From NCBI GenBank assembly GCA_964658305.1, contig OZ210885.1:5394001-5458000 (forward strand): 64,000 nt of DNA. The letters run 5' to 3'. The notes beneath the pieces are model-generated. The model searched no databases and was not told the DNA's origin. It worked only from the letters and a program-made list of their open reading frames with translations. How positions within the stretch are numbered: position 1 is the stretch's first letter; each line of letters begins with the position of its first letter. The stretch is from Leptogorgia sarmentosa. Its lineage: Eukaryota. Below are positions 25,439-51,836 of the stretch, one piece after another. A program made the translations under genes and the position numbers.

Positions 25439-28400
25439 TCACGACACCCGAGAATTCTTGCTGGTTAAATCTAAAGAGATAAAATGTGGGATTTGAACAA
25501 GTATGATAAACAATAACATATTGAATGAAGTCGAGTAGGGTGAGGAATTATTAAGGCAGAGGTTTTTTTTTATCAAACTGAGATAAGATGTTGGCGATAA
25601 CACAAACTGGATCTTGCTGTAGTAACAAGTGCGCATGCTGTAATTTGATTTGCTGTTCTGCTCACTATCTATTCCCCGATACAGGGACGTAGGAACGTTT
25701 TCAGGATGGGGGGGGGGGCGAATCTGACGCACGGCCCTTGTTTCCCCCTGCCCCGGTTCCTACGTCCCTGCCTCGATAAGATAGCCATCGGCAAAACAAA
25801 TGAATTTTTTTAAAGAAAATGTCTTCTGGCCCGCGTTTTGGAATTATTTTGTTCAATATTTCGCATAATGGCGTTTTTGTGTTCTGCGTGACTACAACTA
25901 CCAGCATACGTTTATGAAAATCGTAACGCAAAAGGACTGCAAATGCTCGCAACTCACCATCCATGCTAGGTGGCCTTGTGCCATTTTTATACTGCCCCAT
26001 CATCGCATCAAACATCTGTCCCTGTGCATAGTAAGCAGCATATTCGGGTGGTACGTTCCTTGGCATGCCATTAGCGATCATTGAGCCAGCCATATGATAA
26101 TTGTCACGTTGCACCATCTGCCGCTGCTGCTGTTGTTGCTGTAACAACATCATTTGCTGCCGTTGAAATTCCCCGTGGGAAGGATAGCCCGGGTACATAG
26201 TTCGTGGGTTAAACCCAGTAAGATCCTGGTTCATTACATTCCCCGGGGATCTCATGTTCATTAAAGATGAAATGCCAGTTGGCCGGTTTAGCGTGGACTG
26301 AATTGCTGGTGAAGGTTTTGAGAAAGTAGTATTTCCCATTGATTGAGCTTGAGATTCCGCTGGGCTTGCAAGACCAACCCCAGCCTGCGGGTGTCTAACT
26401 AGTGAAGACGGCAGCTGACTACGGGTATTATTCAGGTCCATGAACTGCGCAGGCGCATCGGCTGCTTGAAGATTCCCTAAATGCTCCGGCCGTCGACCCT
26501 GCGACATTTCCTGCAGTAATGTTGAGAACTTCAACTGCTCGTGATCGGAACGCTTCGTACGTTGGTCGTCATTGGCTATTAAACTAGAAACACTATACGG
26601 GTTGCTACGTTTCTCCCCGACGCGTGGTTGATTCACTTTCGAGGTGAGGTTCATGAAAACTTTACCCTCATCGGATTCGACAGTTACTGGAGGTGTTTTC
26701 GCCCGTCGGTTTTCTATTCCAACTGGACTATTAACGCTCTCCAAGCCACTAGGATTGTGTAATTTTTGCATTGCCGGATTTGGTTGTACGGATGGAAACG
26801 GGTTGGATTCGTTTGGTGGTGCTGGTCTACCTTGGTTCATGACAAATGGAAAGCGGAGATCGTCCTCGCTTGGTTGACCTGTGGAGGCCTTTATTACACC
26901 TGCAAAAATGGCGCAAGAATATTACATTGCTTGTTTGCAATCACGGGACTTTTTGGCCAAATGACGGGCAATTGAGCAACTTGCGCACGACTTTTCTCGG
27001 TATCTAAGTGCTTGTAGCAAGATAAAATGACAACACATCTATCTAAGACTTAAAGTGTCTCTAAATCTAAACATATCCGTAATGGATCGATTTTCACACA
27101 ACTTTCGCCCGTCCATTTATTAAATTTACGTACAACCAATTCAAATCAGTGAGAGTTTACAGGAAAAATTTTAGTTGTCAATTTTTGCTAGGAGCCAAAA
27201 GTTGGATAGAGAGCTTTCAAGCCGTTTCCCACTTGATGATTTTTTTGCCTATATCAAAACATGAATGTGACTGGCTGGTGTTGATGTCATCGGTGTTTGT
27301 CGCCAGCCAATCAAGTTGCTTTTTTCTCAGTTCGAGCGAAAAAACTCTATTTTTTGACAAACTGATGCTGGCACCACGTGACGTAATATATTTCAAAGGA
27401 GGTCAAATCTAAATTGAGACACATACCTGCTTCCTTGTGTGCGCTAACAGGAACACCACTGGTACTGACATTTTTATCATCAATATCATTCGCCAACTTT
27501 TGCGCTCCTTCTTGATTGCTGCCAGCCTGGTTCGTATGAACGGAGTCTTGCTTCTGCTCCAATGAGGTGGCCAGATTTGCAGGGGGCATACCATTAGCCA
27601 TGGCAGTGGGGGGTCTCCAGCCAGCAAGCATTTGCCTGCCACCAGGCATGACCGCGCCTGGATTTTGCCATGGGGTATTAGTTGATGCGAGGGGTTGTCG
27701 GGGATAAGGGTGGCTCATACCTCGATTATCCTGCAGTCGATTGTTCGTCCACATTGAAGTACTGGCTTCACCTGGGAAAATAGAGAAATGTCGTTAGTCA
27801 TATGCTAACCTCAACAAGCAGCAAAAGATTGCGCTCAATGCCCAAGCGATAAGATATGACTTGACGCTAATTCAAAAATTCCATTCTCATTGCATGCCTC
27901 AATTTCATTTTAATAAGACGAAAGTGTTCTGTATGTCACGTTTATTATATGGCTGAGATAAATGCCGCACGCTGATTGGTTGAGTAGCGGTCTGGAAAAA
28001 GTCATCTTGCCCGCTCAGGAAAGTCATCTTGCCCGCTCGTGAAAATATTGTACAAATAAAATTTTTAAGGAAACAAAATCTTATTATGCCGTACCGTGAC
28101 GATGAAACACTCTCCGATTGAATTTTACTGTCCCAGAAAAACACACGACCCAAAATGCTGAGCTTTAAAGTGAAAATAACGGCGAACAAAACAACAGTTC
28201 GAAAACTGTTGCGAACATATTTTTTACAGCACTTAATGGCTTCATTTCGCATCGAACGTTTGTTGTTTATCAGGAAATTTACATTATATTTTTTTATTCA
28301 ATTTTTTCCTTTGTTGTACTTTTGTTTTGTTGTTGTACAGCAGTGAACGGCCAGAAACAGCCATTAAGTATGCCAGTGTATACGGCTGAACGCGACGAAA

Positions 28401-31400
28401 GTGCTATTTATAACACATACCTTTCGTAGCGACAGGTGGTACATCACGTGCCATCCGAGGAGGGACATTTTGGTTAGGAAACTGAGCAGCACTTTGCGGG
28501 TTCATGCGCATTGCTGGATGAGGTAGGCCCATCATGGGGGGAAACATAGGAGCGGCGCCGCGTTGAAAATCATTCATATTAAACCTCGCGAAGGCGGGAT
28601 GGCCTGGGTACATCTGAGGAGGGTAGAACGGTTGACGCATGTACGGCATTCGTTGAAACGCCATGGGATCTTGCATCAAACGCGATACATCACTCGCCAT
28701 CGGGTTCATGCCGAAATGTTGTGCAAACAAGCCAGGATTTTGAAATCGTGGATCAGCCATGTTTTGATTCGAGCGGTGGATGTCTGCGGCTTTTACCAAA
28801 TCTTCCATTCCGTTTGCCTCGTTCGTTTTCTTTTTGTTTAGTTTACGGAGTTCAGATTCCGTGAGCTCCTCTTCGAAGTCATCGTCACTGGATTGATTGT
28901 CGTCATCGGGAAAGTGTTTTTTCATCTGTCGGTCAAAAACACTCTCCAATGTTTGAGCCATTTGAGTATAACCTTTTGGAAAGAAAAACTCGATTGGTTA
29001 ATGTTGTTAAAGATTGTAAAGCAGCGAGTAATATATTGTATGTAATATATGTAATATATTTATATGGACATACTGATCACGACGCTTATGGTATAAAAGC
29101 GACTGTGTGAATTAGAACAAGTCAGATATTATTGGCACTGATGAAGATCCGGGCTTACGGATCGAAAGCTTTGCGATAATAAAATTACGTGGTGTAAACT
29201 ACAAACTTTATAAATATTATCTTCACCATGCAAAAACTCAAAGAATTAATTATATCGGATTCGTTTCACTAATTTATCAAAGATTGACGATAAATTCGGA
29301 AGTTTTAGCTAAATCCGGAAATTTCTTTGGGAACTTGTATCCGAGGAAATGTGAATTTGAAAATTTCAATACGCTCCCTTTTTTACTATTTGTTATTAGT
29401 ATAAATTTTGGAGTGACAAGAACATTTCCTGGATTCTAATTGGTCCGACTTTCAGGCGATTGTCCCCCGCTACGAGGTGATTTAACATTTCTTCAAAATG
29501 GTGGCATACCTAATAGCCGTTATGAACGAAGATAGTGGAACATTTTGGGTGTTATAACACGCAACAAAGGACAAAAAAGACGAAAATTTCAGAAAAGGAC
29601 CTCACTAAGAACCTCAGACTCCCTGATTACAAGCTTATGTTCATGAAGCCGCACGTCGGCGACTAATTGTTGATAAGCATGACAAATTTAACAATTACGT
29701 AGCCCTAGTTTATACGTCACTCGAACTTTCGTCGTGTCAAATGCAATTCAAACAATAGATAATAAGTAAGACACCTCATTATGATTGTATTGTTTCAATT
29801 GCATCTGACGCGACGAAAGTTCGACATAAGAGCGACTGAATTCAAAAATTATGATTCAGGCATTGGGAAATGGCTGATAAACGTATAGGTTAAGGAAATA
29901 TTGCCAAAATCTTACTGCTTGTCTCTCCATTATATTCCAGGCAGTTATTGAACATAAGCTTCACGTCGGAAATAAACTATAAAAAAAACAAAAAAATATT
30001 AGTACTGCAAATTCGATACACCAGTTTAACCATAAATATTCATCACTATCCCTAAATATCCGTATTATGAAGGATGACAGAGCACATATGTACAGCAGTC
30101 GGAAATGAACATAACAACATGGCTCAGCAATCTCTTACTGTATACATGCATGTATACCTCTTTCAATCCTTTGTATTCCTTGGCGTCTATTTTCTTTTCT
30201 ATCGTTGATAAATCCATGGGATTCTACAGAAAATTAACAAACAATTGTTGAATATGGAGTGGTGGACAGCTTCATGTGACAGTGGCCTAACATGATATTT
30301 TGACCACTTCTTGTCATTCACGGCAAGTTAAACATGAAATTTAGTTAAGTAAATGTAAGGAAATGTTTGTTGGCAAGTACTTTTAAGGGGCTGTTAATAT
30401 GATATAGCTTCCCCGGGTTAAATGAAGCGTAAAATGATTTTGAGGTATTGAAATGAGTCATAGTTTATGATTTGAAGAAAATGTTTAATTCCCGATTGCT
30501 TAAGATTTTGTTCTCATGAAATGTCAAACAGTTAAAATGTTGTTGGTCATTAATTTTTGTAAAATATATCTTTTTTATTGATCAGTACCAGAAGTGACCT
30601 AACTTTGGTTGTTTCGTTTCATAAAATGACTCATTTCAATATCTCAAAATCATCGTACGCTTGAATCCCGGGTAAGCGGGACCATATAAACAGCCCATAA
30701 GGCTGTTTTCCACTTGTCGATTTTTTTCACGCGGACAACCAAAAAGAAAATATGATTGGGTGGTGATGTCGTCAGTGTTTGTCGCCAGCCAATAAAGTTG
30801 CTTTTTTCTCTGTTCGCGCGAAAAATTTCGCCTGGTGGAAAACAGGCTTAAGGCCGTTTTCCACTTCAACCGAATCATAACGTAACGTAGCGTATGTCAG
30901 TGTTTCCTGAGCAGTGAAGTAGATATGACTTTGACACAAAAGAAAATGCTCCGTTACGTTACGAATGAAGTGGAAAGCGGCCTTTAAGCCCCTTACAGAC
31001 GAGCAAGTTTTCTATGACAAGTTTTTATGTGACAAGTTTACTTTGCTCGTCTGTACGTCCCATTTTGCCAATTTTTTCTATGACAAGTGCACTTGTTGAA
31101 AAGCTAGCATGCTAGCTTTTGTACGGTCAACAAAGAAAACTTAATTTCAAAGTAAAATTGTTGACTTGTACAGACTGGCAAGAAACTTGTCACATAAAAA
31201 CTTGTCATATAAAAAATGTTGTGCATACACACGTACACTTGGCAAAGTAAACTTGCCACATAAAAACTTGTCATAGAAAACTTGCTCGTCTGTAACGGGC
31301 TTTAGAGAATCGTGAAAGAAAACGACGTTTCACATACCGTGACGATTTCAAAATAATGCGGCGCATAGGATTCTTCAACAGGCTCAAGGAATGGCCAACC

Positions 31401-34400
31401 ATCCTCATGGCTCTTTAAAGCATCGAGAACTACAGTGATCAAAGACAATTTTGAAAGGCACTTTTTTTTTAAGGATATTTTGACGGGACTCTATTAAAGC
31501 ATCGAGAACTACAGTGACCAAAGATATGAAATAATTTTGAAATTAAATAGCACTTTTTTGTAAGGATGTGAAAAGAACAAAATGTCACATTCTTGCATGA
31601 AATTTTAATTTATCAAAAAAATTCCCCAAAATACCCTACTCGACCTCATTCAATAATTGTTGAATATGACCAATTAATGTACATCATAACGTGGTGTATG
31701 CATGTGTCTTCGATATACGACCAAATTACGTCATAATGTCGTATACGTGTTTTGATGATGTCATGACTCTAAATTTGGGCAGCTACCGCTTGGATATGCC
31801 GATTTCACCCACCGTTGTCAACCAATAAGAACTATTGAATTATTTTCAATAAATAATAAAGTGATATTGGACGTTTACCTTTGTACATTCCAGTGAACAT
31901 GTCGACATCACCTTCAAATGCCCTGAAACATTGAATGAACAGCGATAAGCAAACTTCCTTCATGAAAAATACACATGTAAATATTTTGTGTTAAGTTTTA
32001 TGGTCATTTCCTTCTTCGTTGTTACTAGACCTCCTCCCGTATCTCAATGCAGTAGTTCTTATAATCACCATGCAGCAGAGAATGAACATGTAATGTTGAG
32101 ATTTTTTTGGGGCCAAGACGTGTTCATTTGTTACATGCAAATCGCCCTTCTGTGTTTTTGACAGTGTTGTTATACTTACTTGTCTAATTCATCCAGTTTT
32201 TTGTCGTCATCTTCTTCATCGTCGTCATCGTTTTTCTCCAATGACTGTAAGATTTCATCTGAGACATCAGCGCCACTCATGATCAACCATTGTCTTTCCT
32301 CGCGTAACCTTGCTCGCTCTGCCCGTTCTAAACAAACCCATTCAATTGTCATTTATTTACTGATACAGAGGGAAACAGTGAGTTTGGTGTTATTGTGATG
32401 TTACTCTGAGTATATATCCACACCAGGCAGGCTGAAAAATTAGCCTGGCCTTGGTGGGAATCGAACCCGCGACCTTTGGTTCACCACCTGCCCGGTGTGG
32501 ATATAATTATGCTCAGGGTAACATCACAATAACATTCTGCACCTGAGTACATCAACATCATTCATAAACAATCATATTATATCAGAAACTTACAGATATC
32601 AAAGAAACTAGTGAGTTCCGAAATATCATACATTCGAACCGACTTCATTTCGTAGCTCAGTTGGTAGAGCATTGGACTAGTAAACCAAAGGCCGCGGGTT
32701 CGATTCCCACCGAGGCCAGGCTAATTTTTCAGCCAGCCCGATTTGGATAGAGATATATATATCTACCCCTTATCACTTTCTAAAATTCGCAATATTTGCG
32801 ATGGTTTATAACCTACTTAATTCCTTCAATTTGACAATCCGCTCTTTGCTATGATGGTTTAACCTTCCCATTTTGAAGTTGTGAACAGTTTCAAATTTGA
32901 AAGTTACGTAACATATCCATAAACAAATACTATTGTCACCCAAGCGACGCATTTCCCTTCCCACGCTTCGAACGCATGGCATGCATTCTCGTCCCGCGAA
33001 AAATTTAACCCGCGGGATTATTTTGTTGTCCCGCGGGATAGAAATCCCGTCCCGCACGAGACTGTTAACTTTCCCGTGGTCGGTACGTATACTCAAAGTA
33101 ACATCACAATAACATTCTGCATCTGAGTACTGTACGTCATAACATCATTCATGAACATTCAAGTGAGTTTTGTGTTCCCGAGACGCTGTTGTGAAACGAG
33201 GCGAAGCCGAGTCGTATAGACAGGCCCATAGAGAGAGATCATAGAGAGAGATCATAGAGATAGATCATAGAGATAGATCAGTGAACAAACCTCGTTGTCG
33301 TTTCTCAGCCTGTATCTGGCGTTCTTTCTCTTTGGCTTCAGCTTCTTGTTTCTTTATTTCAGCCAGTCTTTCTTTCTCCTGTTGTTTCTCAATCTCAGCT
33401 TGTTTATCTTCCTCTTCCTTCTGCTGTGCTTTGATGGCAATCCTATCCGAAGACCTTCTTGGAGCCATTTCAACCAACATCTTCTTACGAAATGCCTTGT
33501 CCTATAAAACATATTATGTGCCTCATTAATTTCTTATCTTCTATTCGGCTATGCAATTTGGCTAATTGGCAATCACATGACTTCTCATCCAAGTGACGGG
33601 CAATTAAAAGACTTGTACACGATTTTTCTTAGTATCTGAGTGGTTGTAGCAAGATAAACTGATGGTAACACATTCATCAAGACTTAAAATGTCTCTAATT
33701 CTTAAAAAGTCTCTATTGGACCGATTCTCCTAATACTTGCCCATCAACTGAAATTCGAAATTCACGCCATTGGAAACAGCTAACTAGACAAACTTTTCAC
33801 TAAATTTAGCATTTCACAACATTTCGTGAGGAAACTTGGCATTTTACTTATTCTAAAATGTTCTTTCTAGTCACGGTGATGAATTTTGTTCTCCTCACAA
33901 ATGACAAAATTGTCATTGACAAGTGTACTGTTGAGAAACTGGCATGCCAGCTTTTGAACAAGTATACTTGCCAAATTAAATTTGTTAAATAAAATTTGTT
34001 CGTGGAAACGAGCCTTGTGGTTCATGAATTCTGATGGTTTTCGGAAGGGTAGGGAGTCACCTTGACATGCAAGTCAAACTAACCTTTGCCTCCAACATTC
34101 GAGTAATTTCAGCCAAGAAATCGACAGTGAGTGTTTTGTGCAGATTTTTTTCATCCTTATTGTGACTGTTGGAGAATTTTTCCGCCAATTCTTCCCACTC
34201 GTCTTTGGTTGAACAAACAAGCGACCACATTCGCTTACCATCTTCATTGCGTATTTCATCACATTCACTCTCTTCGTCAACACCATTCTCTTCTTGACCA
34301 GTCAAGCTATCAGAATCACTACAATAAAATGCAGGTAGTTAGAAATTTATACAAGGAGAAAATCGCTACGTTGCACACGAGCAAGTCTTCTATACATTAT

Positions 34401-40172: not shown

Positions 40173-41139
40173 CTTCATGTGCAAAAACTTTATCTTCAAT
40201 TTCCTTGTCTTGTACCCAGTCACGGAGTCGGAATAACAAGCTATATCTTCACTCCTACTTGCGGCTTTAATTCGACGGAGTCACGGCCAAAGCTGAGGTA
40301 TTGAATCTTAACACCGAACCCGAAGCACGACCTAATAATAAAACCATTATTTGACATACAGCCATATATATAGAGTTCATTGCATACAAAATTTCACGAG
40401 TATACAAAAATGTAAAATAAAGAATAAACGGTTCGACTTAATAAAGACGAACAAGCCTCAGTAGTCGATCGGAGAAACATGACAAGTAAACATGAAAAGC
40501 TAAAATTTTTGTTTAGTTTGCCTAATTTCAAAATTAATTAAACAAAATTCTCGACGACCACGGTCATTGAGCTATCCGAGACTACTTCATGTCATTATAA
40601 TATAGTTACACAACCTTCAAGAAGGTTTAAATACAATAAATACTGTCTTAGCAATCGCAAGTCTAGATGGCGCAGTAATACAGTTACTGACGTTCCACGT
40701 CATGGTTTGTGGGTTCGAATCTTCCGCTCGCCATTGCATTCGCTAAAGGACAAGGTGCTTTTCACATATGGTCTAGGGCCCGTCAAAGTATAGCCGGCAT
40801 CCTTGGTGCGTTTTGGTTGCCTTAGTAACCTACTGACGATCTACCAGGTGATAACGCTGAGCGGATGGCAGGGACCTTTGACGAAATTCTTTTCGGTTTT
40901 CTTCACCCCCAAATTTTTTTTTTCTTCTTCCTTGGGTATTCTTGCTTCTTAACCCTTTTACAATGTTGGGATGTTGAAAAAAAACGAAGAAAAAATGAAA
41001 ACAAATTTTGCTCGCGATTTACACGGCCCAGGCCCCGTAGGGTGCATTATTCGTATTGGTTTGGGCCAGAGAACTTTTCACTTAAAAACACGTTTTCAAG
41101 ACCTTTATCAAAATTTTAAATTCCTTGGAAAATTGGCAC

Positions 41140-41215
41140 GTCGTGATTGGCTTAGGGCCAAAAGGTAAACAGTGCGCTGATTGGTCAAAAGCGAAATTCG
41201 CCCTTACTATATAGT
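41140..41215 (+). promoter_or_regulatory. Candidate Pol II promoter of the PTP gene (two inverted CCAAT boxes and a TATA-like tatata)
   Basis: gattgg at ~41145 and ~41179, tatatag at ~41208, about 140-200 bp upstream of ATG 41350. Confidence 0.3.
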
Positions 41216-41349: not shown

Positions 41350-44300
41350 ATGGGTTCAAGGAGGTGAGTAGTATTTATTTGCGGTATATGAGCAAAAACA
41401 CAATCTTATTTATTTAATTGACTATTTTTATTCCAGATGGTTTCATGCACGGATCACAGGACAAGACGCCGAAACACTTCTTTTAGAGAGAGGATCTGAT
41501 GGCAGCTTTCTCGTGAGACCAAGCCAAAGTAATCCCGGTGATTTTACACTGTCCGTAAGGTAGATGATCCTCCTCGTTTCTGTAGTAAGATACGAGCATT
41601 ATATTGCTCAAGTATAAAGATACCGAAGTGACATAATTATGTAGTTATTATGATAAGCTCCAAGACTTTATTAGTTTATTTAATAACACTGCAGCATATA
41701 CACCTAGATGTTACTCCCTTACCATAGTGTCAATCCAGAGGTGGCAATCATAAGCAAATAATTTTTAGCAACAGTGATGAATTATACAATTCTTAGAGCA
41801 ATATGGACATGACTGAGGCCCCGTCCAACCGTATCCGGATTCGTTAATTGTTATCCGCAAACATTTTGTTGCGGTTACGCTTCGTGTCCACATGCACGTG
41901 TCCGGCGAAAACGCATATATTATACTGTAACCACAAACCCCTGAAAACGGTCTTCGGAGTGGAAATTTTTGAAAACGCAACTAAATAAATCATTGAGAAA
42001 ATAGGTGATGCGCGGCCAGGATTAAACTATATAATGAATAAACAATAAGACAGGAGAAATTACAGGACTAGGAAAACATTAGAATCATGGCACACATCGA
42101 AAACTAAAGACGCGGATAATCGGGAACCAGTCATAAAGTATCTGCTAGGGTGGGCCGGAGTGATTTGAGATGGGCAATGGAAAATATTGAGGCTGTTTGG
42201 ATGTGCTGCTGATTTTTTTTGAAATACCTGGTTCAAAATCCAAAAGTTTGTCTGCTATAATAGAAAAAAATGATTATAAAGACATGTATGCAGCAACCCC
42301 TTACCTTACTACCCTAACTACAGGTACAATGCATCTATATTTTCGAAACATAAAATGTTTCTTCATCTATATTTTCATTATATTTTTCAAACGAATTGTG
42401 GAAATATTAAGCAAATATAAAGCTATGTTAAGGCTAATCCTGCGTTAAAAATGAACCCAGTACTTAATTTAGTTTGTTTATTTCTGCATGTCTGTTTACT
42501 TCAAAACTCCAAAGAAGAAATCTCTCATTGATCCTCACAAGATTTCTGAATAAACGTTACTAAATTAACTGACAAACTGTTGGAGAAATTGCTTTGGGTT
42601 AAATTAATTGGATTTTGAAAAACTGGTCCCATGGCCTTTTTACAAATAAACCGGAGGGGGGAAAAGCCCCTACCCCCTATGTTGGCCACTAGAGTTTGGC
42701 CCCCGTCAAAAGTCCCGTTTTGGCTTAAATTTAGCGAAAATCACGCTACAATTTCAGGAAAGCAAGCCTGCGAAACTCAAAAATCCCCAGACCCGCCTTC
42801 AATGTACATTTTGTTTATCTTTTCTTTATTAATGTATATTTTTTTCCTTCTCGTGCTTACCATTTTCTTATTATTTTGTAAATTTGTAAATCTGTCAAAT
42901 TTGTAGTCCAGTTGTGTGGAAAGTAAATGAATACATCGATACGTACGCAAACAAATTTAAAATTGTTGAATTTTTAACATGAACATTCATAACAAACCAA
43001 ATAGAGAGTACCCCATGGAAGTGCGTTAACGCCTTTTTTATATATCTTGATAGTTAAAGGTGGTGCTTGATAGTGTTGTTGTTGCCTTACAAAAATGGGT
43101 GGGTCACGAAATAAATGCTGTTAGGTTTCATGGGCTCCGAAATTTCTATTGAACATCAAAGGTGGGCCACAAATGACTCCAGCACACCCTAGCAGATACT
43201 TTATGACCGGCTCCTAATTAATTATGTATGCACTTTTATTTCACCCGTTGAAGACTGCAGTCTGGTAGTCGAAAGCTCGTAATAAAAATATTTTTGGTCA
43301 GAGAGCGTCTTATTGTTTATCCATTATAAATAACGCGAACGAGTGAGATATCCTGTTCAACACAAGAAATAAATTTCATATTTCGAGCAATCGTGTAATA
43401 TTCTGTTTATTTTATAAACATTAGTACAAACAAAAGCCAATTCATATAAATAATATATTTTTTAAACTCAAAACAAATGTGTAAGTTATAGTACACAGTA
43501 TAACAATCATTCAGTTACAAATGCCGTCAATGTCTCTTTAAAGGCATATCAAAGTGCAGAAATGTATGTATATAAAACTAGTAAATGAAAAACGAACGGA
43601 AACTGTACAAAGAACATTACAAATTCATAAAGTCGTAGTAAACATAGTCAGATTACGTAGCTAATTGTTCTGACTGTCACCTTGACTGCTGTCGCTACTT
43701 GCCATGTTGATAAAAAATATTTTGACGAAAAACTTTTTGTTTACGTTTTACAACATGTTTTCTAATTGGTCAAACAGATTTCCTACGCGGTTTTTGATTG
43801 GCTTACAAAAATGATATTTTCACACGTAAAAATATCGTATTTTTTACATGTGTTAATAAAATACGATTTTTCTCAATGGCCAAAAACTCTATATGACACT
43901 AATGTTTATAAAATAAATCATATTACTTCCCCATAGACGTGGTGAAGAAGTTACTCACATCAAGATTCAAAACAGTGGTGATTTTTATGACCTTTACGGA
44001 GGAGAGAAGTTTGCTACACTCTCTGAACTGGTCTTGTATTACACTGAAACCAGAGGGCAACTGAAGGAACGAGCTGGTGAAGGTTTTACGTATACTTTCA
44101 AATATCCTTTGAATTCTACCGACCCAACAACAGAAAGGTTTGGGAAATGTGTTTATAGAAAACTTTAAAAAGTCTCTGAATGCAATTTTGTCGTGATTGT
44201 TGTTACTTGTCAGTCGATGATCCTTCCATTTAATACATTAAATCACTGAATGAACATGAAAGCAAAACATAGAAAAAGATTGAAACGTGACACACAGTTC

Positions 44301-47300
44301 TTTGCATTCTTTTTGAGAAATTTTTCGACACGTTCATCTGTCCATCCTGTTGAAAAACCTTCTCCAAAATAACTGTTTTAGAGACTATATATACACTTTA
44401 CAACAATTTTTCCTATTCATCGATAACTGATCACCGAGACTTCAGTATAACTAATTGTTAGACAACGTAATAATTCATTCATGATCATTTCAGATGGTTT
44501 CATGGTCAAATTTCAAGCAACGAAGTGGAGAAAGCTTTGTTAGATAAAGGAAAAAATGGAAGTTTTCTTGTCTCTGAAAGTCTGATCAGACCAGGGCATT
44601 ACACTATTTCTGTTCGGTAGGTTCTAGGACGACAGGTTTCTATGCTGCTGTTTTACTCTGTTCAAGGCCGTCGGAAGCGGGGGTAGGCTGGGGGAGCTTT
44701 AGCCCCCCCAATTATTTTTACATGTACAAAATAAACCAAAACAAAACCAACTCAGACTAGAAAAAATGCGAACCTAATTTAGATTTATTCACGACTCACT
44801 TATTATAATCTTCAGAATTCTAAAAAATCTACTTCCCAAAACGCTGGAAATCGTATTTTCGGTGGTTCTAGATTTCAAAATTTTCTACGGGGGCATACCC
44901 CCTAGCAGCGCTAGACTGCCTTCGGCATTCGCCTAAGTATAATAGTATAGTTTTGCCTCAAAAAGGTGCCACTACAGCCTGTTTCATCCAAGAGGAATCA
45001 TCAGATGGCTGATGATTCCTCTTCGATGAAACAGGCTGTAGTGGCACCTTTTTGAGGCAAAACTATACTATTTGCTCTATCTATATGGTATCGAGCACTC
45101 TTTTGGCAGTATATATATATATATATATAATTATATTGTAGTGAACGGGCTCTCTACGGGCTTTTTACCTCGTTTAGAATCGACGAAAGCGTCACTCATG
45201 TTAAGATTCGTTGCACCAATGGTTATTACGACGTGGGTGGAGGCGAGAAATTCTCAGATCTTAAAGATCTCGTTGAACATTACAAGAAAAGCCCTATGAA
45301 AATGAAATCTGGTGAAATTGTTCAGCTGAAAGTCGTGAGTACAGAGATTTATTTGCGCTTTCTACTCAGCCTGGCCAGTGTGGACGCACAGTCAGAGTAA
45401 CATCACTAAACATTCTTCGCCTGAGTACAATGCAACAACATGAAAAATCATATATTATTATTTATTATTGCTTCGGACTACACTAGATGCTAACAGAGAA
45501 ACGTCAATATATTTTCGGTACTGCAGCCGTTGCAAACGTTCAAACAACGCATAGGTATTAAAAATATCGTCTTCTTTTTACGAACATACAGCCGTACAAC
45601 TCCACAAGAATCATCGCCTCCAGTATTGAGGACAGAGTTAGCGAGCTGTTGAAAGAAAATGGAAACGTCGATGGAAAGGGAGGATTCTGGGAAGAATTTG
45701 AGGTGGGGAGGTTTAATGAACCGTTTTAAGTTGTTCTTCATTGTTAATACCCCTCCGATGTCGAGAGGCGTGGTGTGGCGGGGCATAGGCGTACGAGGGG
45801 GTGGGGCTGGGGGGCTGCAGCCCCCCCCAAATTTTTTGAGAATTCATCTATTCGGGCAAAAATTGTCTTGTCATTCGGGCAGCGACGGTCTGGTGATTAG
45901 ATAAAAATAAAAATTACGCTAGTAACTTTCTCTTTCTCTATAAATCGTAATGAATACATTTAGCTTATAATTGAAATGGCTAGGGACGACCAGTGACGTA
46001 GACAAGGGGGGGGGGGCACGGGGGGGGGGCTCAGCCCCCCAAAAGGCTGAAGGACTGCGCAGTAAAAAGATGAAATCCGGGTAGAAATTAGGGGGGGGAC
46101 GATGACTACCCATGTGACTACCAATCTCAATCCAAACATTTTCACAAATCTCACCCCAGAAACACGCTAAATCGCCATTGATGGACTCCAGATTTCAAAA
46201 TTTTCCCGGGGGAGAATCCCCCCGGACCCCCCTAGATGCCATCGCGCCTTCCGCGTTTGCTTCGCCCCCCCAAAAATGAAGGTCTGGTTACGCCACTGGG
46301 GACGACATATTTCTTTTTATATCAATTTTCAAAGGAAAGCTTTTCATTTATAGTATTCTCAGATTATATAATATTATGATGACGTCACGAAATATATGAC
46401 GTCATGTAATTCGGGCAAATTCAGCCCAGCCCCCCCAAAAAAAATGTGCCCGTACGCCTATGTGGCGGGGGAGGTTCGACTATCGCAGTAGCGCACCGTG
46501 GTCAATGATCAACCTAAGTTAATCTGTCGGTAAACTATTTTCAGTCGGTTTAAGATGCACGTCAAAAAACTTGAACATGTCTGCTGTATTCACGTGAATA
46601 TTTTCATTTGCAGAATTTACAACAGCAAGAATGTAAACATTTTTACAAACGAGAAGAAGGTCGAAAACCCGAAAACAAAGCGAAGAACAGATACAGAAAC
46701 GTTTTGCCTTGTATGTAGCGAGAAAGCTTTTGAATATATTACTTGGAATAACTTAATTCCCATCATAGGGGATCGATGTTATTGTCATTGTTAAGGAAGT
46801 AGGAAGCACACAGTTGGGGTGGGGGCATCTGGTGTAAAGGGAATTTGTCATTGACAAGTCTATACAAAAAAGGACACATTACCCCAAAGGGAAAGAGCAC
46901 TTTCTGAGCGATTTCTAAAATCTTGGCGTCTTTCCGTGTGTTCTTTAGTAGGACCACTTTTTAACATTTTTAGTTGATCATAGTCGCGTGATTCTTGGCG
47001 ATGAGGCGCAAAACGAATCAGGACTGAACTACATCAATGCGAACTATATTGATGTGAGTTGTATTTCTTATGTTAATATATTACCAGTAATTGGAGTAAT
47101 TGGAATCCCGCAAAGTCCCAATTCCATTTTTGACCACTTTGAACCGTGTCTAGCTGTGCAATGTTTTATCAAAGATTAAAACCGTTCCAATTGAAATCAT
47201 TCTTCATTCTAGGGTCTTCTTCAAGGTCACGAGAAACGATATATCGCAACTCAAGGATGCCTTCCCGTCACTGTCGGTGACTTCTGGGCAATGATATGGC

Positions 47301-49605
47301 AAGATAACTCTCGTGTCATTGTCATGACAACCAAGGCAGTGGAAAGAGGACAGGTGAGTCATGGCTGATATTTTTCGCGATGGATGTCTTTATACGTACC
47401 AGAGTCATTTGATTGAGCACTGGCAAATGGTATCACCTATACAGGAACTTGCGCGGCTTGCGCTTAAATGTCTAAACTGAAGTTTCCTCGTTTGACGGAT
47501 TTACTCTTTTCATCCAGTATACGATTTTACCCATCAAGGAACAGTGCTGCTAGTCCTATGTTTGCTCACTTGCAAACCTCGTTCCCAGGGTCTTGATCCT
47601 CGCATCAAGGAACGAGGGTTCGGAATGAGGTTATTGGTTTACTTGTTGATCTATTTATTCACTCTGGCAGACAAAATGTACGCGGTATTGGCCAGACGAT
47701 AAACACATGATGAAAACATTTGGAAAGTACAACGTGATGCTGAAGGAAGAAGAACACACGCCCAATTATGTTTTCAGAGAAATGGAAGTTTGGAAGAATA
47801 CAGATCTAGATGTATACGTGAGTATACATTTGTATGTGCACTTTGGGGAAATTCTGATTTACTTTTTTGATAGTAAGTCAGGATGTTTTTTCGCTACTTG
47901 CACTGGTCATTGCATCTTTTTTTTGTGTATCTCTACAGGAGGTTGCACAACCACGACGTATTTACCAGTTTCACTACACAGGATGGCCCAATTACGGTGT
48001 CCCTGATGATCCCAGCTCAGTCCTCAATACACTCGAGGATGTGAATATCAAGCAAGACCATACTGGAGGCGCTGGGCCCATTGTTGTACATTGCAGGTGG
48101 GGCACTATTGGGATTGGTGGTTTCTGTGAAGGTTATAGTGCAACATAACACAGACACTATCGGTTTACCAACTCAATTTTTTTATGTCGTGTAGTGCTGG
48201 TATTGGGAGAACAGGAACATTTATAGTTATCGATATGTTGCTGCATATTATCAAAGAACAAGGTTAGAATTTTGCTTTTGGGAATTGCGTTTATCTATTT
48301 CTGTTATATGTAAGTCAACATCTGAGTATCAACTAGTGACGCTTTACATAAAGTAAATTTGTCGTGGAAAACGTGCTCATATGTGCGGGGCTTAACTTGT
48401 CAGGAGAACTGCACCATGCACCGTGCAGTTTTGCGTGTTTGTTTGGTAAAAACAATTTTTGTTTTTTTAAAAATTCTTCCAATTCCGTTCAGGGCTGAAC
48501 AGCGAGATCGATATCAAGCAAACTATACTCAATGCTCGAGGACAAAGATCGGGCATGGTGCAAACAGAGGTAGAGCAACTCCTAGCAGCACAATAGTGAC
48601 TTGGAGAACGTCATTCCGTTTATCTAGCATAGATAGTGTGACACTCGGTGAATGAATATCACCTGTAAAATATTGCAACCTGTCGAATGATTTTGTGTTT
48701 TCTTGATTTTCTAGGCTCAGTACAAGTTTATATACAGCGTTCTTCAGCAATACATTTCCGCTGAAATTACTCGGCTGGATCAGACTCGGCCTGTCGACCA
48801 ATCCCAGTTTGAAGTAAGTTGAAGTCTTGGCGAACTATTTTTGCGATAGATATCTTCAACTCTACATTATAATAGATTATGAATCCGTAGATGTGCAACT
48901 CGGGCTATTTCGTGTCCTACGTTTTGTCTTGGATACGTCATAGCCACGCGCGTTTCTGGCAAGTACAAATGCATGATTTAATATAACGGAATTAGTCGGA
49001 AAATGTCAAATAAACGACGATTTTAAGAAAACTTACCGCAAGATTGCCTTCGCAGATATTTATAAAAACAAGTTGTCCTTTATATTTTAAGCAATAAATG
49101 AGCTTATGTTTTTGTCCTGGTCGCTTAAAAAACGGCGAAAGCCATTTTTCCGTTATTGAAAATCGAACAAATGTAGTTGCCAGAAATCCGTGTTGACATG
49201 ACGTAATGCGTAGGACAGCAAAATCGTAGGCAAATATCCCGGGTTGCACATCTATGTATCCTTAATCTATGACATTATGTAGAACACTGAGCTTCAACTT
49301 GCTATCATCGTTTCTATTATTATTGTTTTCATTTCAGCCCCAGATCTATGGTAACCCAAGCTCGCTACATTTTAACGACAAACCGAAACGGCCTATTCCT
49401 GCACCCCGAAATTTCAACAGGTCAGTGAGGTTTACTTGCAAATAAAAAACACTTGAAAATCTCTGCGGAGAAGAGACTTAAGAGTTTCGTGACATGTTCC
49501 ATCTTTTCTAGACCGTCAAGCACTGAGAAAACTGGCGGTTGTTTGCAATCTCCTCAACCTACATGCGCTCCTGCGGTTGTTCCTAGGACAACTAATGGTG
49601 CAAAG
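41350..49605 (+). CDS. PTPN11: SHP2/PTPN11-like SH2-SH2 protein tyrosine phosphatase, divergent paralog; at least 16 exons, reading frame open at a donor at 49605
   Basis: [13 protein letters not shown]...[52 protein letters not shown]...DPTTE|RWFHG...GGFWEEFE|...KNRYRNVLP|...[15 protein letters not shown]...[22 protein letters not shown]...[30 protein letters not shown]. All junctions are GT-AG and phase-compatible. Confidence 0.93.
42123..43214. mobile_element. Non-autonomous TIR element splitting a Penelope-like 3' fragment in PTP intron 2
   Basis: TIR ggaaccagtcataaagtatctgctagggtg / caccctagcagatactttatgaccggctcc. The left flank encodes [13 protein letters not shown] (GIY-YIG tail-like) and the right flank has a decayed TGAAGA...GAAAGCTC motif. 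Confidence 0.6.
44942..45071. repeat. 130-bp near-perfect palindrome containing a hammerhead-like motif (44969-45008, minus)
   Basis: atagtatagttttgcctcaaaaaggtgccactacagcctgtttcatc... is mirrored. The minus strand reads CCAT-CTGATGA-TTCC(tctt)GGAT-GAAA-CAGGCTG-TA-GTGG. Confidence 0.7.
45784..46462. mobile_element. hAT-type MITE with 8-bp TSD, containing a nested second hAT MITE
   Basis: TGGCGGGG|cataggcgtacg ... cgtacgcctatg|TGGCGGGG. Confidence 0.9.
45991..46298. mobile_element. Nested hAT-type MITE with 8-bp TSD
   Basis: GGGACGAC|cagtgacgta ... tacgccactg|GGGACGAC. Confidence 0.88.
48888..49254. mobile_element. MITE in a PTP intron
   Basis: TIR tagatgtgcaactcggg / cccgggttgcacatcta; no clear TSD. 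Confidence 0.6.
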
Positions 49606-50623
49606 GTAATGCTGCTGTTAACGTTCTAAATGCATGACACCGAATGACTTCATCAAATTTTCCAAAAGGTTCCCTATCATCACACGATGTCCCTAAGTGA
49701 AAAAAGCTTAGAAGCCCGGCGTGGAATTTTGTAATTTTTTTAGTGCATGTCCACTCCCACTGTAGCAATTGCAAGAAAATTGAACAAAATTCAAATCCCG
49801 CGCAAACATTGAGTAAATGATTGCCATCATATTTCGCTTGCAGCGAGAGGACAGTCAGTTCTTTGAATATGCAGGTGGTTCGTAAGCTTCAAAAATATAA
49901 AAAATTGCATTACAATTTGGCTAGTGAGGAAAAATACATACCTGGAATGCATGGACAAAATTTAAGATAAAAATATTTAGTCAAAAAGCATGGAAATTTC
50001 AGTTCATGTCCAACTTCGCCAGGCTATATTTACCGACCGTATTTATTTTAGTACATTTGACAGCCAAACTTCGCAATTTTTCTAATTTTGACAACTTTTT
50101 TTGAGGATAGGGCAAGTTGAATCCATTCTTTGTTCTATATAGGGTCTGCCTAAAGATGGCAAAGAACAATACATCGAAATTCAAGAAATATTTGAGACTA
50201 GGGGTCGGTATCATGGTAAGAAATTGTAGGAGAAAGAAGGGTCGATATATTAGTCTATGTTTGTCTTGCCAGAACTACACGGCTGAAACAAAATACAAGT
50301 GAAGGTACTGATCTGGCCTTCTTTGCATCTGTTAAACTGACATGATGTCATTTTACCAAGATCTAAAGTTTTTCAGGGTGCCCCACCCATTTATCCAAAG
50401 CCCAATTGAAAAAATTCCAAACGCCAACCCTGCATGAACCTAGTCGGAACCTCAACAATTTTAACGATATAAACCGTAACCCTGATAGATTCTTTGGTTT
50501 CCTGGCCTGTTCAGTAACTACAGGAACTGGGCCTATCAAATTTTTTTTTAAGTTTTCGTATTTATCATCCGTCATAAGTGCATGATATAAGATAAAATTT
50601 TATTGTACATGCAATATTAATAG

Positions 50624-51836
50624 GAAATCAGCCACTATTGAACACCTCTATCAGCTCACGTGGTCTGCAACCACAACTGACGCCAGATCAGATTACAGTC
50701 CTCTCTACCGACACTCGCTACCTATCCCAAACATTGGTGACAGACTTGGACAACGCCTACAAAATGCAAAGCCAGCCACGGGGCCTGTGCTTGATAATCA
50801 ATAACAAACAATTTGCAGAATCTGCAGAATTAAAGCAGAGAGATGGCTCGGATGCAGATGCTTTAAACCTGCAAAAGCTATTTCTTGCTTTGCATTACAC
50901 TGTGACGGTGCTACACGATACAACAGCAACAGTACTTATGCATAAGATTAACGAGTTTGCGAAAAACCCCGATCACAGTTCACTGGACTCGGTTGTAGTT
51001 TGCATCCTGAGCCACGGAATAGCAGGAAGGATCTATGGTGCAGATGGGGAGCTTATTCCAGTCACAGACATAACATCAGCATTTAATGGGCACAATGCAA
51101 AGCATTTGATTGGTAAACCTAAATTGTTTTTTATCCAGGCCTGTCGAGGAGGCAAGGTAGGGTGAAATATTAACACTACTCATCACAGCAATATGTGCAG
51201 CATTTTAGAGTTTATTATTTTCCTTTGTCCATTCACCAATCACCATGGCAAAAAATTGGCGCATGTACATTTTACCAGAATGCATTGCGGGCTAAGACAT
51301 GAAGCTTTCTAAACTATGATGAGCCCTTCGTAATTTAATATATATAGACTGAAAAAATATTACAAGAAACATAGATAATGGATAAAATTTAGTATGAAAA
51401 TCACTGAATGTCTTCTGTCTGTTCTTCAAAAGTCAGTTGAGCTATTCTTCTCCCTAAGATTGACCATGGTGCAAGCAGAGATGAAGTGGACTTTGGCAAA
51501 GTAACAATTAAAAACACCACTCTAAACGAAGGTGAAGATGAGATTGACTCAGGGGGTAGTCCTGCAGCTTTGGTCCCTGCAGAAGCAGACTTTTTGTTGG
51601 CTTACTCAACTGTCCCAGGTTTTGTTTCATGGAGGAATTCCGAGAAGGGGTCGTGGTTTGTTCAAGCACTGTGTGAGATATTTATGACTTATGCTGGACA
51701 GGAAGACCTCGTCAGCATGCTCATCAGGGTCAATGGAAAAGTTGCACAGGAGTTTCAATCATATAAACAGAAAAAGCAAGTGCCATCTCCTGTTGTTAGA
51801 TTAACTAAAAAAGTCTACTTTTTTCCTGGGCGTTAA
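50624..51836 (+). CDS. Caspase (peptidase C14) catalytic domain in two exons (50624-51156, 51459-51836); no ATG or CARD/DED of its own
   Basis: PRGLCLIINN, RDGSDAD, ILSHG (catalytic His), KPKLFFIQACRG (catalytic Cys), and small subunit ADFLLAYSTVPGFVSWRN..GSWFVQAL...KQVP...LTKKVYF. The first exon starts at a phase-1 acceptor (taatag|ga aat cag) directly after in-frame stops. Confidence 0.93.

What the first reader, a model, noticed from the sequence alone, without database searches (positions are those of the whole stretch)
41350..51836. Candidate SH2-SH2-PTP-caspase fusion gene: a SHP2-like module in place of a caspase prodomain
Seen: the PTP reading frame reaches a good donor (gcaaag|gtaatg, 49605, phase 0) without a stop. 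A small exon at 50143-50215 (tatag|GGT...CAT G|gtaag; GLPKDGKEQYIEIQEIFETRGRYH) takes phase 0 to phase 1. The caspase exon starts at a phase-1 acceptor (50624) with in-frame stops just upstream and no ATG. An alternative mini-exon at 49844-49874 also bridges phase 0 to 1. Only about 1 kb separates the modules and I see no CARD or DED exons in it. Established: SHP-family phosphatases normally end in a short Tyr/Pro tail, and initiator caspases are activated through adaptor-binding prodomains. Inference: one protein could couple phosphotyrosine (ITIM/RTK-type) recruitment to caspase dimerisation. I do not know of a described protein with this architecture.
Basis: partly seen in the sequence, partly recalled or inferred. 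Interest (0 to 1): 0.92.

Follow-up and report, generated by a model that had tools for sequence, protein, structure and literature searches.

The report
Octocoral SHP2–caspase fusion gene
In a soft-coral-group (octocoral) genome, a duplicated SHP2 phosphatase gene is spliced in frame onto a caspase whose usual CARD recruitment domain is missing, giving a predicted protein that likely lets phosphotyrosine signals recruit and switch on a death protease directly.

Summary
The fusion is real. Nineteen GT-AG exons (41350-51836, +) give one 918-aa frame, SH2-SH2-PTP-linker-caspase. Contigs of run X4 (type not on record, spliced like RNA) join the last PTP exon to exon 17 and exon 17 to the caspase exon at the predicted sites; that last joint rests on one contig with 28 letters on its short side. 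DNA contigs span the junction unbroken. Both halves are octocoral duplicates. The caspase is 82% identical to a CARD-caspase from exactly the exon boundary after the CARD, and parent-type SHP2 and caspase sequences are present in X4. N-SH2 and the caspase catalytic residues are intact. The C-SH2 phosphotyrosine Arg and the WPD Asp are lost (kept in 185 and 184 of 189 homologs). Most likely it is a phosphotyrosine-docked, proximity-activated caspase with a weakened phosphatase (inferred, about 50%). Against this: an unspliced SHP2-only form also occurs, the copy evolves fast, and no second species or protein was seen. No such architecture was found among 503 retrieved proteins or in six literature searches.

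The parts
41350..41363 (+). exon 1, start codon
   Evidence: four ATTGG (reverse CCAAT) boxes lie at 41055-41180
41437..41559 (+). exon 2, N-SH2 with intact FLVR Arg32
43937..44137 (+). exon 3, N-SH2 second half; D61, E69, A72, E76 kept; 2-aa insertion near residue 96
44494..44616 (+). exon 4, C-SH2; FLVR Arg replaced by Ser140, with a cluster of changes 118-152
45178..45334 (+). exon 5, C-SH2 second half
45592..47817 (+). exons 6-10 (45592-45702, 46614-46710, 46974-47053, 47213-47353, 47671-47817): SH2-PTP linker and PTP first half; L253F, K271R, I273V
47939..48096 (+). exon 11, PTP; WPD loop reads WPN (D416N, H417Y); catalytic Cys450
48195..48813 (+). exons 12-14 (48195-48262, 48493-48569, 48715-48813): P-loop, Q-loop and last PTP helix
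   Evidence: exon 14 lies on the X4 358-letter contig
49338..49605 (+). exons 15-16 (49338-49420, 49512-49605): SHP2-derived Pro-rich tail with Tyr536
   Evidence: homologous to the P0148 tail, E 2e-15; spliced in X4
50143..50215 (+). exon 17, linker exon (phase 0 to 1) with Tyr601; no homolog found; read-through of its donor gives an SHP2-only stop at 50229
50624..51156 (+). exon 18, caspase N-terminal linker and large subunit; His746 and QACRG Cys789
   Evidence: joint 50215>50624 in X4
51459..51836 (+). exon 19, intersubunit linker (Asp804, Asp823), small subunit (SWR Arg852), stop
   Evidence: joint 51156>51459 in X4

Best explanation
A duplicated octocoral SHP2 gene is spliced in frame onto a CARD-less caspase, and the predicted 918-aa protein likely acts as an initiator caspase that docks on phosphotyrosine motifs through its N-SH2 domain and is activated by clustering. 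Shown: the gene structure, the spliced junctions, the parents and the residue pattern. Inferred steps: (1) N-SH2 binds one pTyr motif on a receptor or adaptor tail; C-SH2 no longer binds pTyr. (2) The PTP domain, lacking the general acid, has little activity, so it would not erase the docking site and may hold pTyr substrates instead. (3) Several changes would loosen N-SH2/PTP auto-inhibition, favouring docking. (4) Receptor clustering brings caspase domains together in place of CARD-CARD assembly; they would dimerise, cut the intersubunit linker (Asp823 or Asp804) and cleave substrates, for cell death or local proteolysis. The gene likely arose by exon shuffling at the phase-1 intron after the CARD, with both parent genes kept.
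For: One open frame over 19 exons. Caspase homology starts at Gly616 = Gly99 of CARD-caspase P0001, and genomic ORFs P0344, P0397 and P0281 of relatives break at the same place. Caspase His746, Cys789, Arg688, Gln787 and Arg852 are present; small-subunit pN/pS is 0.12 against the X4 parent-type contig and dN/dS 0.06 against L001 and L002. Changes specific to this copy: N-SH2 4 of 105, C-SH2 20 of 93, PTP 23 of 276 (Fisher p 1.4e-4 for N vs C). R138Q weakens C-SH2 pTyr binding in human SHP2 (PMC12894930, passages). In the human SHP2 scan (PMC12216643, supplement rows), D425N scores -0.165 in the PTP assay against -0.205 for C459S, and I282V +0.30 and L262F +0.15 in full length against +0.39 for E76K. 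Under neutral drift of 0.04-0.09 per site, 8-18 stops or splice-site hits were expected and none is present. Two coral CARD-caspases of another clade are weak dimers like human initiators (PMC7586219, abstract and passages).
Against: No protein, activity or binding partner was tested. RNA-type support comes from one run whose type is not on record, as contigs; the exon 17-18 joint has 28 letters on the short side, under the tool's 31-letter bar. At the listed variant sites in exons 3-13, X4 shows only the parent-type contig, so linkage of this copy's SH2 exons to the caspase is inferred from the genome. An unspliced form at donor 50215 has depth 9.1 against 13.7 spliced. The SHP2 half has a long branch (0.24 vs 0.017 for its sister) and the large subunit has 27.5 non-synonymous differences from L001 against 4 between L001 and L002, which relaxed selection would also give. 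For exons 17-19 alone, the chance of staying open is 0.007-0.11. I looked up only 8 of about 47 substitutions in the human scan, chosen by prior knowledge; R138S, K364Q, E359A and S499G were near neutral or slightly negative. H417Y is natural in 16 of 189 homologs. No second species with the fusion was found.
Confidence: 0.5

Rival explanations
1. A young chimeric duplicate under relaxed selection: transcribed and still open, but without a settled role and possibly decaying.
For: Long branch; loss of near-invariant residues R140, D416, K271, I273; lower X4 depth (about 15) than the parent-type SHP2 contig (124-170), though depth is a poor measure; no relative found.
Against: No stop, frameshift or broken GT/AG where 8-18 were expected; the indels seen keep the frame; changes are uneven, sparing N-SH2 and the small subunit.
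Confidence: 0.2
2. The selected product is a low-activity SHP2 decoy or scaffold that competes with canonical SHP2 for pTyr sites; splicing into the caspase is a by-product of a strong donor in its last exon.
For: X4 contig 50187-50570 reads through the donor to a stop; N-SH2 is conserved while catalysis is predicted to be weak.
Against: The spliced form is the deeper of the two (13.7 vs 9.1). The caspase has no CARD or supported first exon of its own, yet keeps its catalytic residues and a constrained small subunit.
Confidence: 0.13
3. The SHP2 half restrains or targets the caspase rather than activating it: the zymogen is held at pTyr sites and cut by upstream caspases, or it cleaves receptor-complex substrates without cell death.
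For: The first intersubunit site changed from DQVD-S to DEVD-F while the second Asp site is kept. In Acropora caspase-X an N-terminal inactive domain dampens the active caspase (PMC4715348, passages).
Against: The new module sits exactly in the place of the CARD, the dimerising element; about 100 low-complexity residues separate PTP and caspase, which fits a tether better than a clamp (inference).
Confidence: 0.13
4. Two neighbouring genes or an assembly artefact; the caspase has its own start, for example an ATG-bearing frame ending at donor 49874.
For: An open frame with an ATG ends at donor 49874 in the right phase; the key joint is short-sided.
Against: DNA contigs of X1-X3 (one sample) span 49212-50862 unbroken; X4, another sample and study, splices exon 16 to 17 to 18; exon 17 has no in-frame ATG.
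Confidence: 0.04

Closest known systems
SHP2/PTPN11 (corkscrew), octocoral ortholog cluster P0148 with Paramuricea clavata CAB3997213.1 and Dendronephthya gigantea XP_028393987.1
   Same: SH2-SH2-PTP order; 92%, 76% and 87% identity in N-SH2, C-SH2 and PTP; nests in the octocoral SHP2 clade as sister to P0148 (97/94).
   Different: C-SH2 Arg and WPD Asp lost; the tail continues through a new exon into a caspase instead of ending at about 606 aa.
Anthozoan CARD-caspases with QACRG (P0001; Nematostella, Montipora and Porites 'caspase-3-like')
   Same: 82% identity over 307 aligned columns to P0001, with the same exon boundary after the prodomain; groups with octocoral CARD-caspases (SH-aLRT 92-99).
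   Different: CARD replaced by a 615-aa SHP2 module; 5-aa deletion in the intersubunit linker.
Invertebrate caspases with shuffled N-termini: amphioxus TNFR-caspase and LRR-caspase (PMC2575513), bivalve DSRM-caspases (PMC7836458), Acropora caspase-X (PMC4715348); Roc-COR-, GT4- and ankyrin-caspases among my hits
   Same: A non-death-fold module joined to a caspase, proposed as a signalling shortcut.
   Different: None seen carries SH2 or PTP domains; here the input would be tyrosine phosphorylation.
Engineered SH2/PTB-DED chimeric adaptors (Howard et al., seen only as cited in PMC2575513)
   Same: Redirect tyrosine-kinase signalling to caspase activation.
   Different: Synthetic adaptors that recruit a separate caspase; this is a natural single chain with the protease built in and a phosphatase domain between.

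Membership tests
SHP (PTPN11/PTPN6) phosphatases | Tandem SH2 domains followed by a classical PTP domain | tested here: met
SHP (PTPN11/PTPN6) phosphatases | N-SH2 FLVR Arg and auto-inhibitory residues (N58, G60, D61, Y63, E69, A72, E76) | tested here: met
   all match the majority residue of 189 homologs
SHP (PTPN11/PTPN6) phosphatases | C-SH2 FLVR Arg | tested here: not met
   Ser140; Arg in 185 of 189, Ser in none
SHP (PTPN11/PTPN6) phosphatases | P-loop Cys and Arg, Q-loop Gln | tested here: met
   C450, R456, Q497, Q501
SHP (PTPN11/PTPN6) phosphatases | WPD-loop general-acid Asp | tested here: not met
   Asn416; Asp in 184 of 189, 5 gaps
SHP (PTPN11/PTPN6) phosphatases | Ends in a short tail after the PTP domain | tested here: not met
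   the spliced form continues into the caspase; only the read-through form stops
SHP (PTPN11/PTPN6) phosphatases | Phosphatase activity relieved by pTyr ligand | not testable with these tools
   needs an enzyme assay
Caspases (Peptidase C14A) | His-Cys dyad, QACxG and S1 arginines | tested here: met
   H746, C789, R688, Q787, R852
Caspases (Peptidase C14A) | Large and small subunits with Asp sites in the linker | tested here: met
   Pfam 1-129 and 150-233 of 233; Asp804, Asp823
CARD initiator caspases | N-terminal CARD | tested here: not met
   no CARD exon in the window
CARD initiator caspases | Activation by induced dimerisation | not testable with these tools
   inferred from the parent family; PMC7586219 concerns a different coral clade (QACQG)

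The most novel reading that the evidence does not exclude
A natural phosphotyrosine-gated initiator caspase: evolution swapped a CARD for SHP2, then disabled the second SH2 and the phosphatase's general acid, turning a growth-signalling enzyme into a pTyr reader that wires tyrosine-kinase or ITIM-type receptors straight to caspase activation without any death-fold adaptor.
Probability: 0.45. Interest if true: 0.92.

Novelty: new variant of a known kind. Interest (0 to 1): 0.8.

Why it matters
Known initiator caspases are recruited by death folds. A caspase recruited by SH2-phosphotyrosine binding has, in what I could search, only been approached by engineering. A natural single-chain version would show that tyrosine-kinase signalling can be joined directly to cell death or proteolysis by one exon-shuffling step. 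It may bear on cnidarian immunity or allorecognition (speculation). It is also a young chimeric gene with both parent types still present, so its retuning (C-SH2 and WPD loss, N-SH2 kept) can be tested residue by residue against well-mapped human SHP2 variants.

Tried and rejected
No whole genome is held, so copy number, parent loci and synteny could not be examined. No RNA holder was listed on record; X4 was judged RNA-like from its GT..AG joints. The mini-exon 49844-49874 and the route 49605>50377 show no cover or joint in X4; contigs show presence only, so these are not excluded. My translations of these two routes were off by one base and are not used; one search has the right frames. Four protein searches listed no fusion: best 120 of 780, 120 of 938, 120 of 3116 and 150 of 7895; 0 of 285 caspase-domain proteins among 503 retrieved had an SH2 or PTP hit. 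The metagenome scan gave only two CARD-caspase transcript contigs. Earlier scan findings: none. The atlas search on exon 17 did not run because the peptide is too short. No structure or complex was predicted: the product is split over exons, and a p20/p10 pairing would pass by likeness to solved caspases. An assembly chimera was rejected. The caspase tree step failed and was rerun in quick mode.

Full report
Observation. Joining 19 exons between 41350 and 51836 on the + strand, all with GT..AG introns, gives 2757 nt with a single stop at the end: 918 aa, SH2-SH2-PTP-linker-caspase. Pfam confirms the domains on 6 of 6 gene exons submitted. Exon 17 (50143-50215) and exon 18 (from 50624) have in-frame stops directly upstream and no ATG, so neither can start a protein. 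No CARD exon lies in the 64-kb window.

Transcript evidence. Four public runs hold the stretch; none is on record as RNA. X1-X3 (one sample) behave as DNA: single contigs cover 49212-50862 unbroken across the PTP tail and caspase exon. X4 (another sample and study) behaves as RNA. One 358-letter contig at depth 15.9 runs from the last PTP exon through exons 15, 16 and 17 with GT..AG joints. A 268-letter contig at depth 13.7 joins 50215 to 50624, and another joins 51156 to 51459 at 14.4. The lengths equal the model's exon sums, and the two contigs leaving exon 17 start at the same 30 letters, which occur once in the window. Limits: this is one run and contigs only, and the key joint has 28 letters on its short side, below the tool's 31-letter bar. 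A second contig (50187-50570, depth 9.1) reads through donor 50215 and would stop four codons later; it may be pre-mRNA or an SHP2-only isoform. At the listed variant sites in exons 3-13 only a deeper parent-type contig is laid (bin arithmetic). I read this as the assembler removing the rarer of two similar paths (inference), so linkage of this copy's SH2 exons to the caspase rests on the genome, not on reads.

Origin. The closest SHP2 (P0148) clusters with Paramuricea clavata and Dendronephthya gigantea proteins, so the source is likely an octocoral. The SHP2 half is sister to P0148 with a branch of 0.24 against 0.017. The caspase half is 82% identical to CARD-caspase P0001, and the match starts at Gly616 = Gly99, the first codon of exon 18, right after the CARD. 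Genomic ORFs of relatives end (P0344, P0397) or begin (P0281) at that same point. The SHP2 module therefore replaced the CARD exon at an existing phase-1 intron. The deeper X4 contigs carry variants that mostly return this copy's residues to the canonical SHP2 and CARD-caspase states (compared), so both parent types likely persist. Five synonymous differences in about 56 sites in the small subunit suggest a young duplicate. Exons 15-16 are SHP2 tail; exon 17 has no homolog among the proteins retrieved.

Residue pattern. Against five canonical octocoral SHP2 sequences, changes specific to this copy number 4 of 105 in N-SH2, 20 of 93 in C-SH2 and 23 of 276 in the PTP. Among 189 SH2+PTP homologs, position 140 is Arg in 185 (here Ser), 416 is Asp in 184 with 5 gaps (here Asn), 273 is Ile in 188 (here Val) and 253 is Leu in 181 (here Phe); Tyr417 is natural in 16. 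By the alignment of P0148 to human SHP2 chain 4dgp_A (numbered by hand) these are R138, D425, I282, L262 and H426. R138Q severely weakens C-SH2 pTyr binding (PMC12894930, passages). In the deep scan of PMC12216643 (passages and supplement rows), D425N and H426Y score -0.165 and -0.161 in the PTP assay (C459S -0.205, D425A -0.332) and fall in the class that loosens auto-inhibition; I282V and L262F score +0.30 and +0.15 in full length (E76K +0.39). I looked up 8 of about 47 changes, picked by prior knowledge, and four were near neutral or slightly negative, so this is not an enrichment test. That paper's main supplementary PDF was too large to read. N-SH2 pocket and interface residues are all kept. 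The caspase keeps His746, Cys789, Arg688, Gln787 and Arg852, and two linker Asp sites.

Selection. dN/dS against L001 and L002 is 0.19-0.21 for the whole caspase and 0.06 for the small subunit; between L001 and L002 it is 0.09. The large subunit has changed faster (27.5 non-synonymous differences against 4). With neutral drift of 0.04-0.09 per site, 8-18 stops or splice-site hits were expected across the gene and none occurs (P at most 3e-4); for exons 17-19 alone P is 0.007-0.11. The drift range comes from few sites and a partly cut variant table. The frame is under selection, but relaxed selection on C-SH2, PTP and large subunit is not excluded.

Mechanism (inferred). The likeliest reading is a caspase recruited by N-SH2 to pTyr motifs and activated by clustering, with the CARD's role taken over by the SHP2 module. 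The weakened PTP would spare the docking site and could add a second pTyr contact. Two coral CARD-caspases of another clade are weak dimers like human initiators (PMC7586219, abstract and passages), and engineered SH2-DED adaptors redirect kinase signals to apoptosis (cited in PMC2575513, passage only). Rivals are a decaying young chimera (0.2), an SHP2 decoy with by-product splicing (0.13), a restrained or non-apoptotic caspase (0.13) and separate genes (0.04).

Novelty. No fusion appeared among the listed best hits of four protein searches, and 0 of 285 caspase-domain proteins among 503 retrieved had an SH2 or PTP domain. These lists are the top 120-150 of hundreds to thousands, not an architecture census. 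Six literature searches gave no description of this architecture in their listings. 'SH2' and 'phosphatase' do not occur in PMC10959488, PMC7836458 or PMC4715348 (term counts and passages); their supplements were not searched, and the library lacks most subscription journals. Caspases with shuffled N-termini are a known kind in invertebrates, so I file this as a new variant of that kind. If the pTyr-gated mechanism holds, it would be a new way of activating a caspase in nature.

Noticed in passing
window 1-13400: Tandem array of 19 U6 snRNA genes on the - strand, period 724 bp, with the 300-nt reference stretch identical in all 19 copies; it runs off the window start.
   Followed up: partly
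window 53451-54526 (+): Frameshifted remnant with QRICH1-domain and DUF3504 hits, 1.6 kb downstream of the fusion gene; from memory this pairing marks Crypton-type tyrosine-recombinase transposons. No link to the fusion was tested.
   Followed up: partly
window 50377-50409 (+): Behind a good acceptor lies a short frame GAPPIYPKPN*, sharing APPI with the canonical octocoral SHP2 C-terminus (65 of 20000 shuffles of the region gave APPI, a post-hoc test). Possibly a relic of the old SHP2 last exon; no X4 joint uses it.
   Followed up: partly
window 50143-50215, Tyr601; 49338-49420, Tyr536: The linker holds YIEI and YGNP, which from memory resemble an SHP2 N-SH2 ligand and a Grb2-type YxN motif; they could allow self-docking or oligomerisation if phosphorylated.
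   Followed up: no
window 25701-28997 (-): Multi-exon gene for a Pro/Gln/Met-rich protein; two of its ORFs gave no Pfam hit.
   Followed up: no
window 32646-32718, 52670-52738, 55696-56701: Six tRNA-like matches, four clustered at 55.7-56.7 kb.
   Followed up: no
P0342, P0367, P0381, P0391 (search hits, not in the window): Unnamed proteins with Roc-COR-caspase, Bcl-2-Roc-COR-caspase and GT4-glycosyltransferase-caspase architectures.
   Followed up: no
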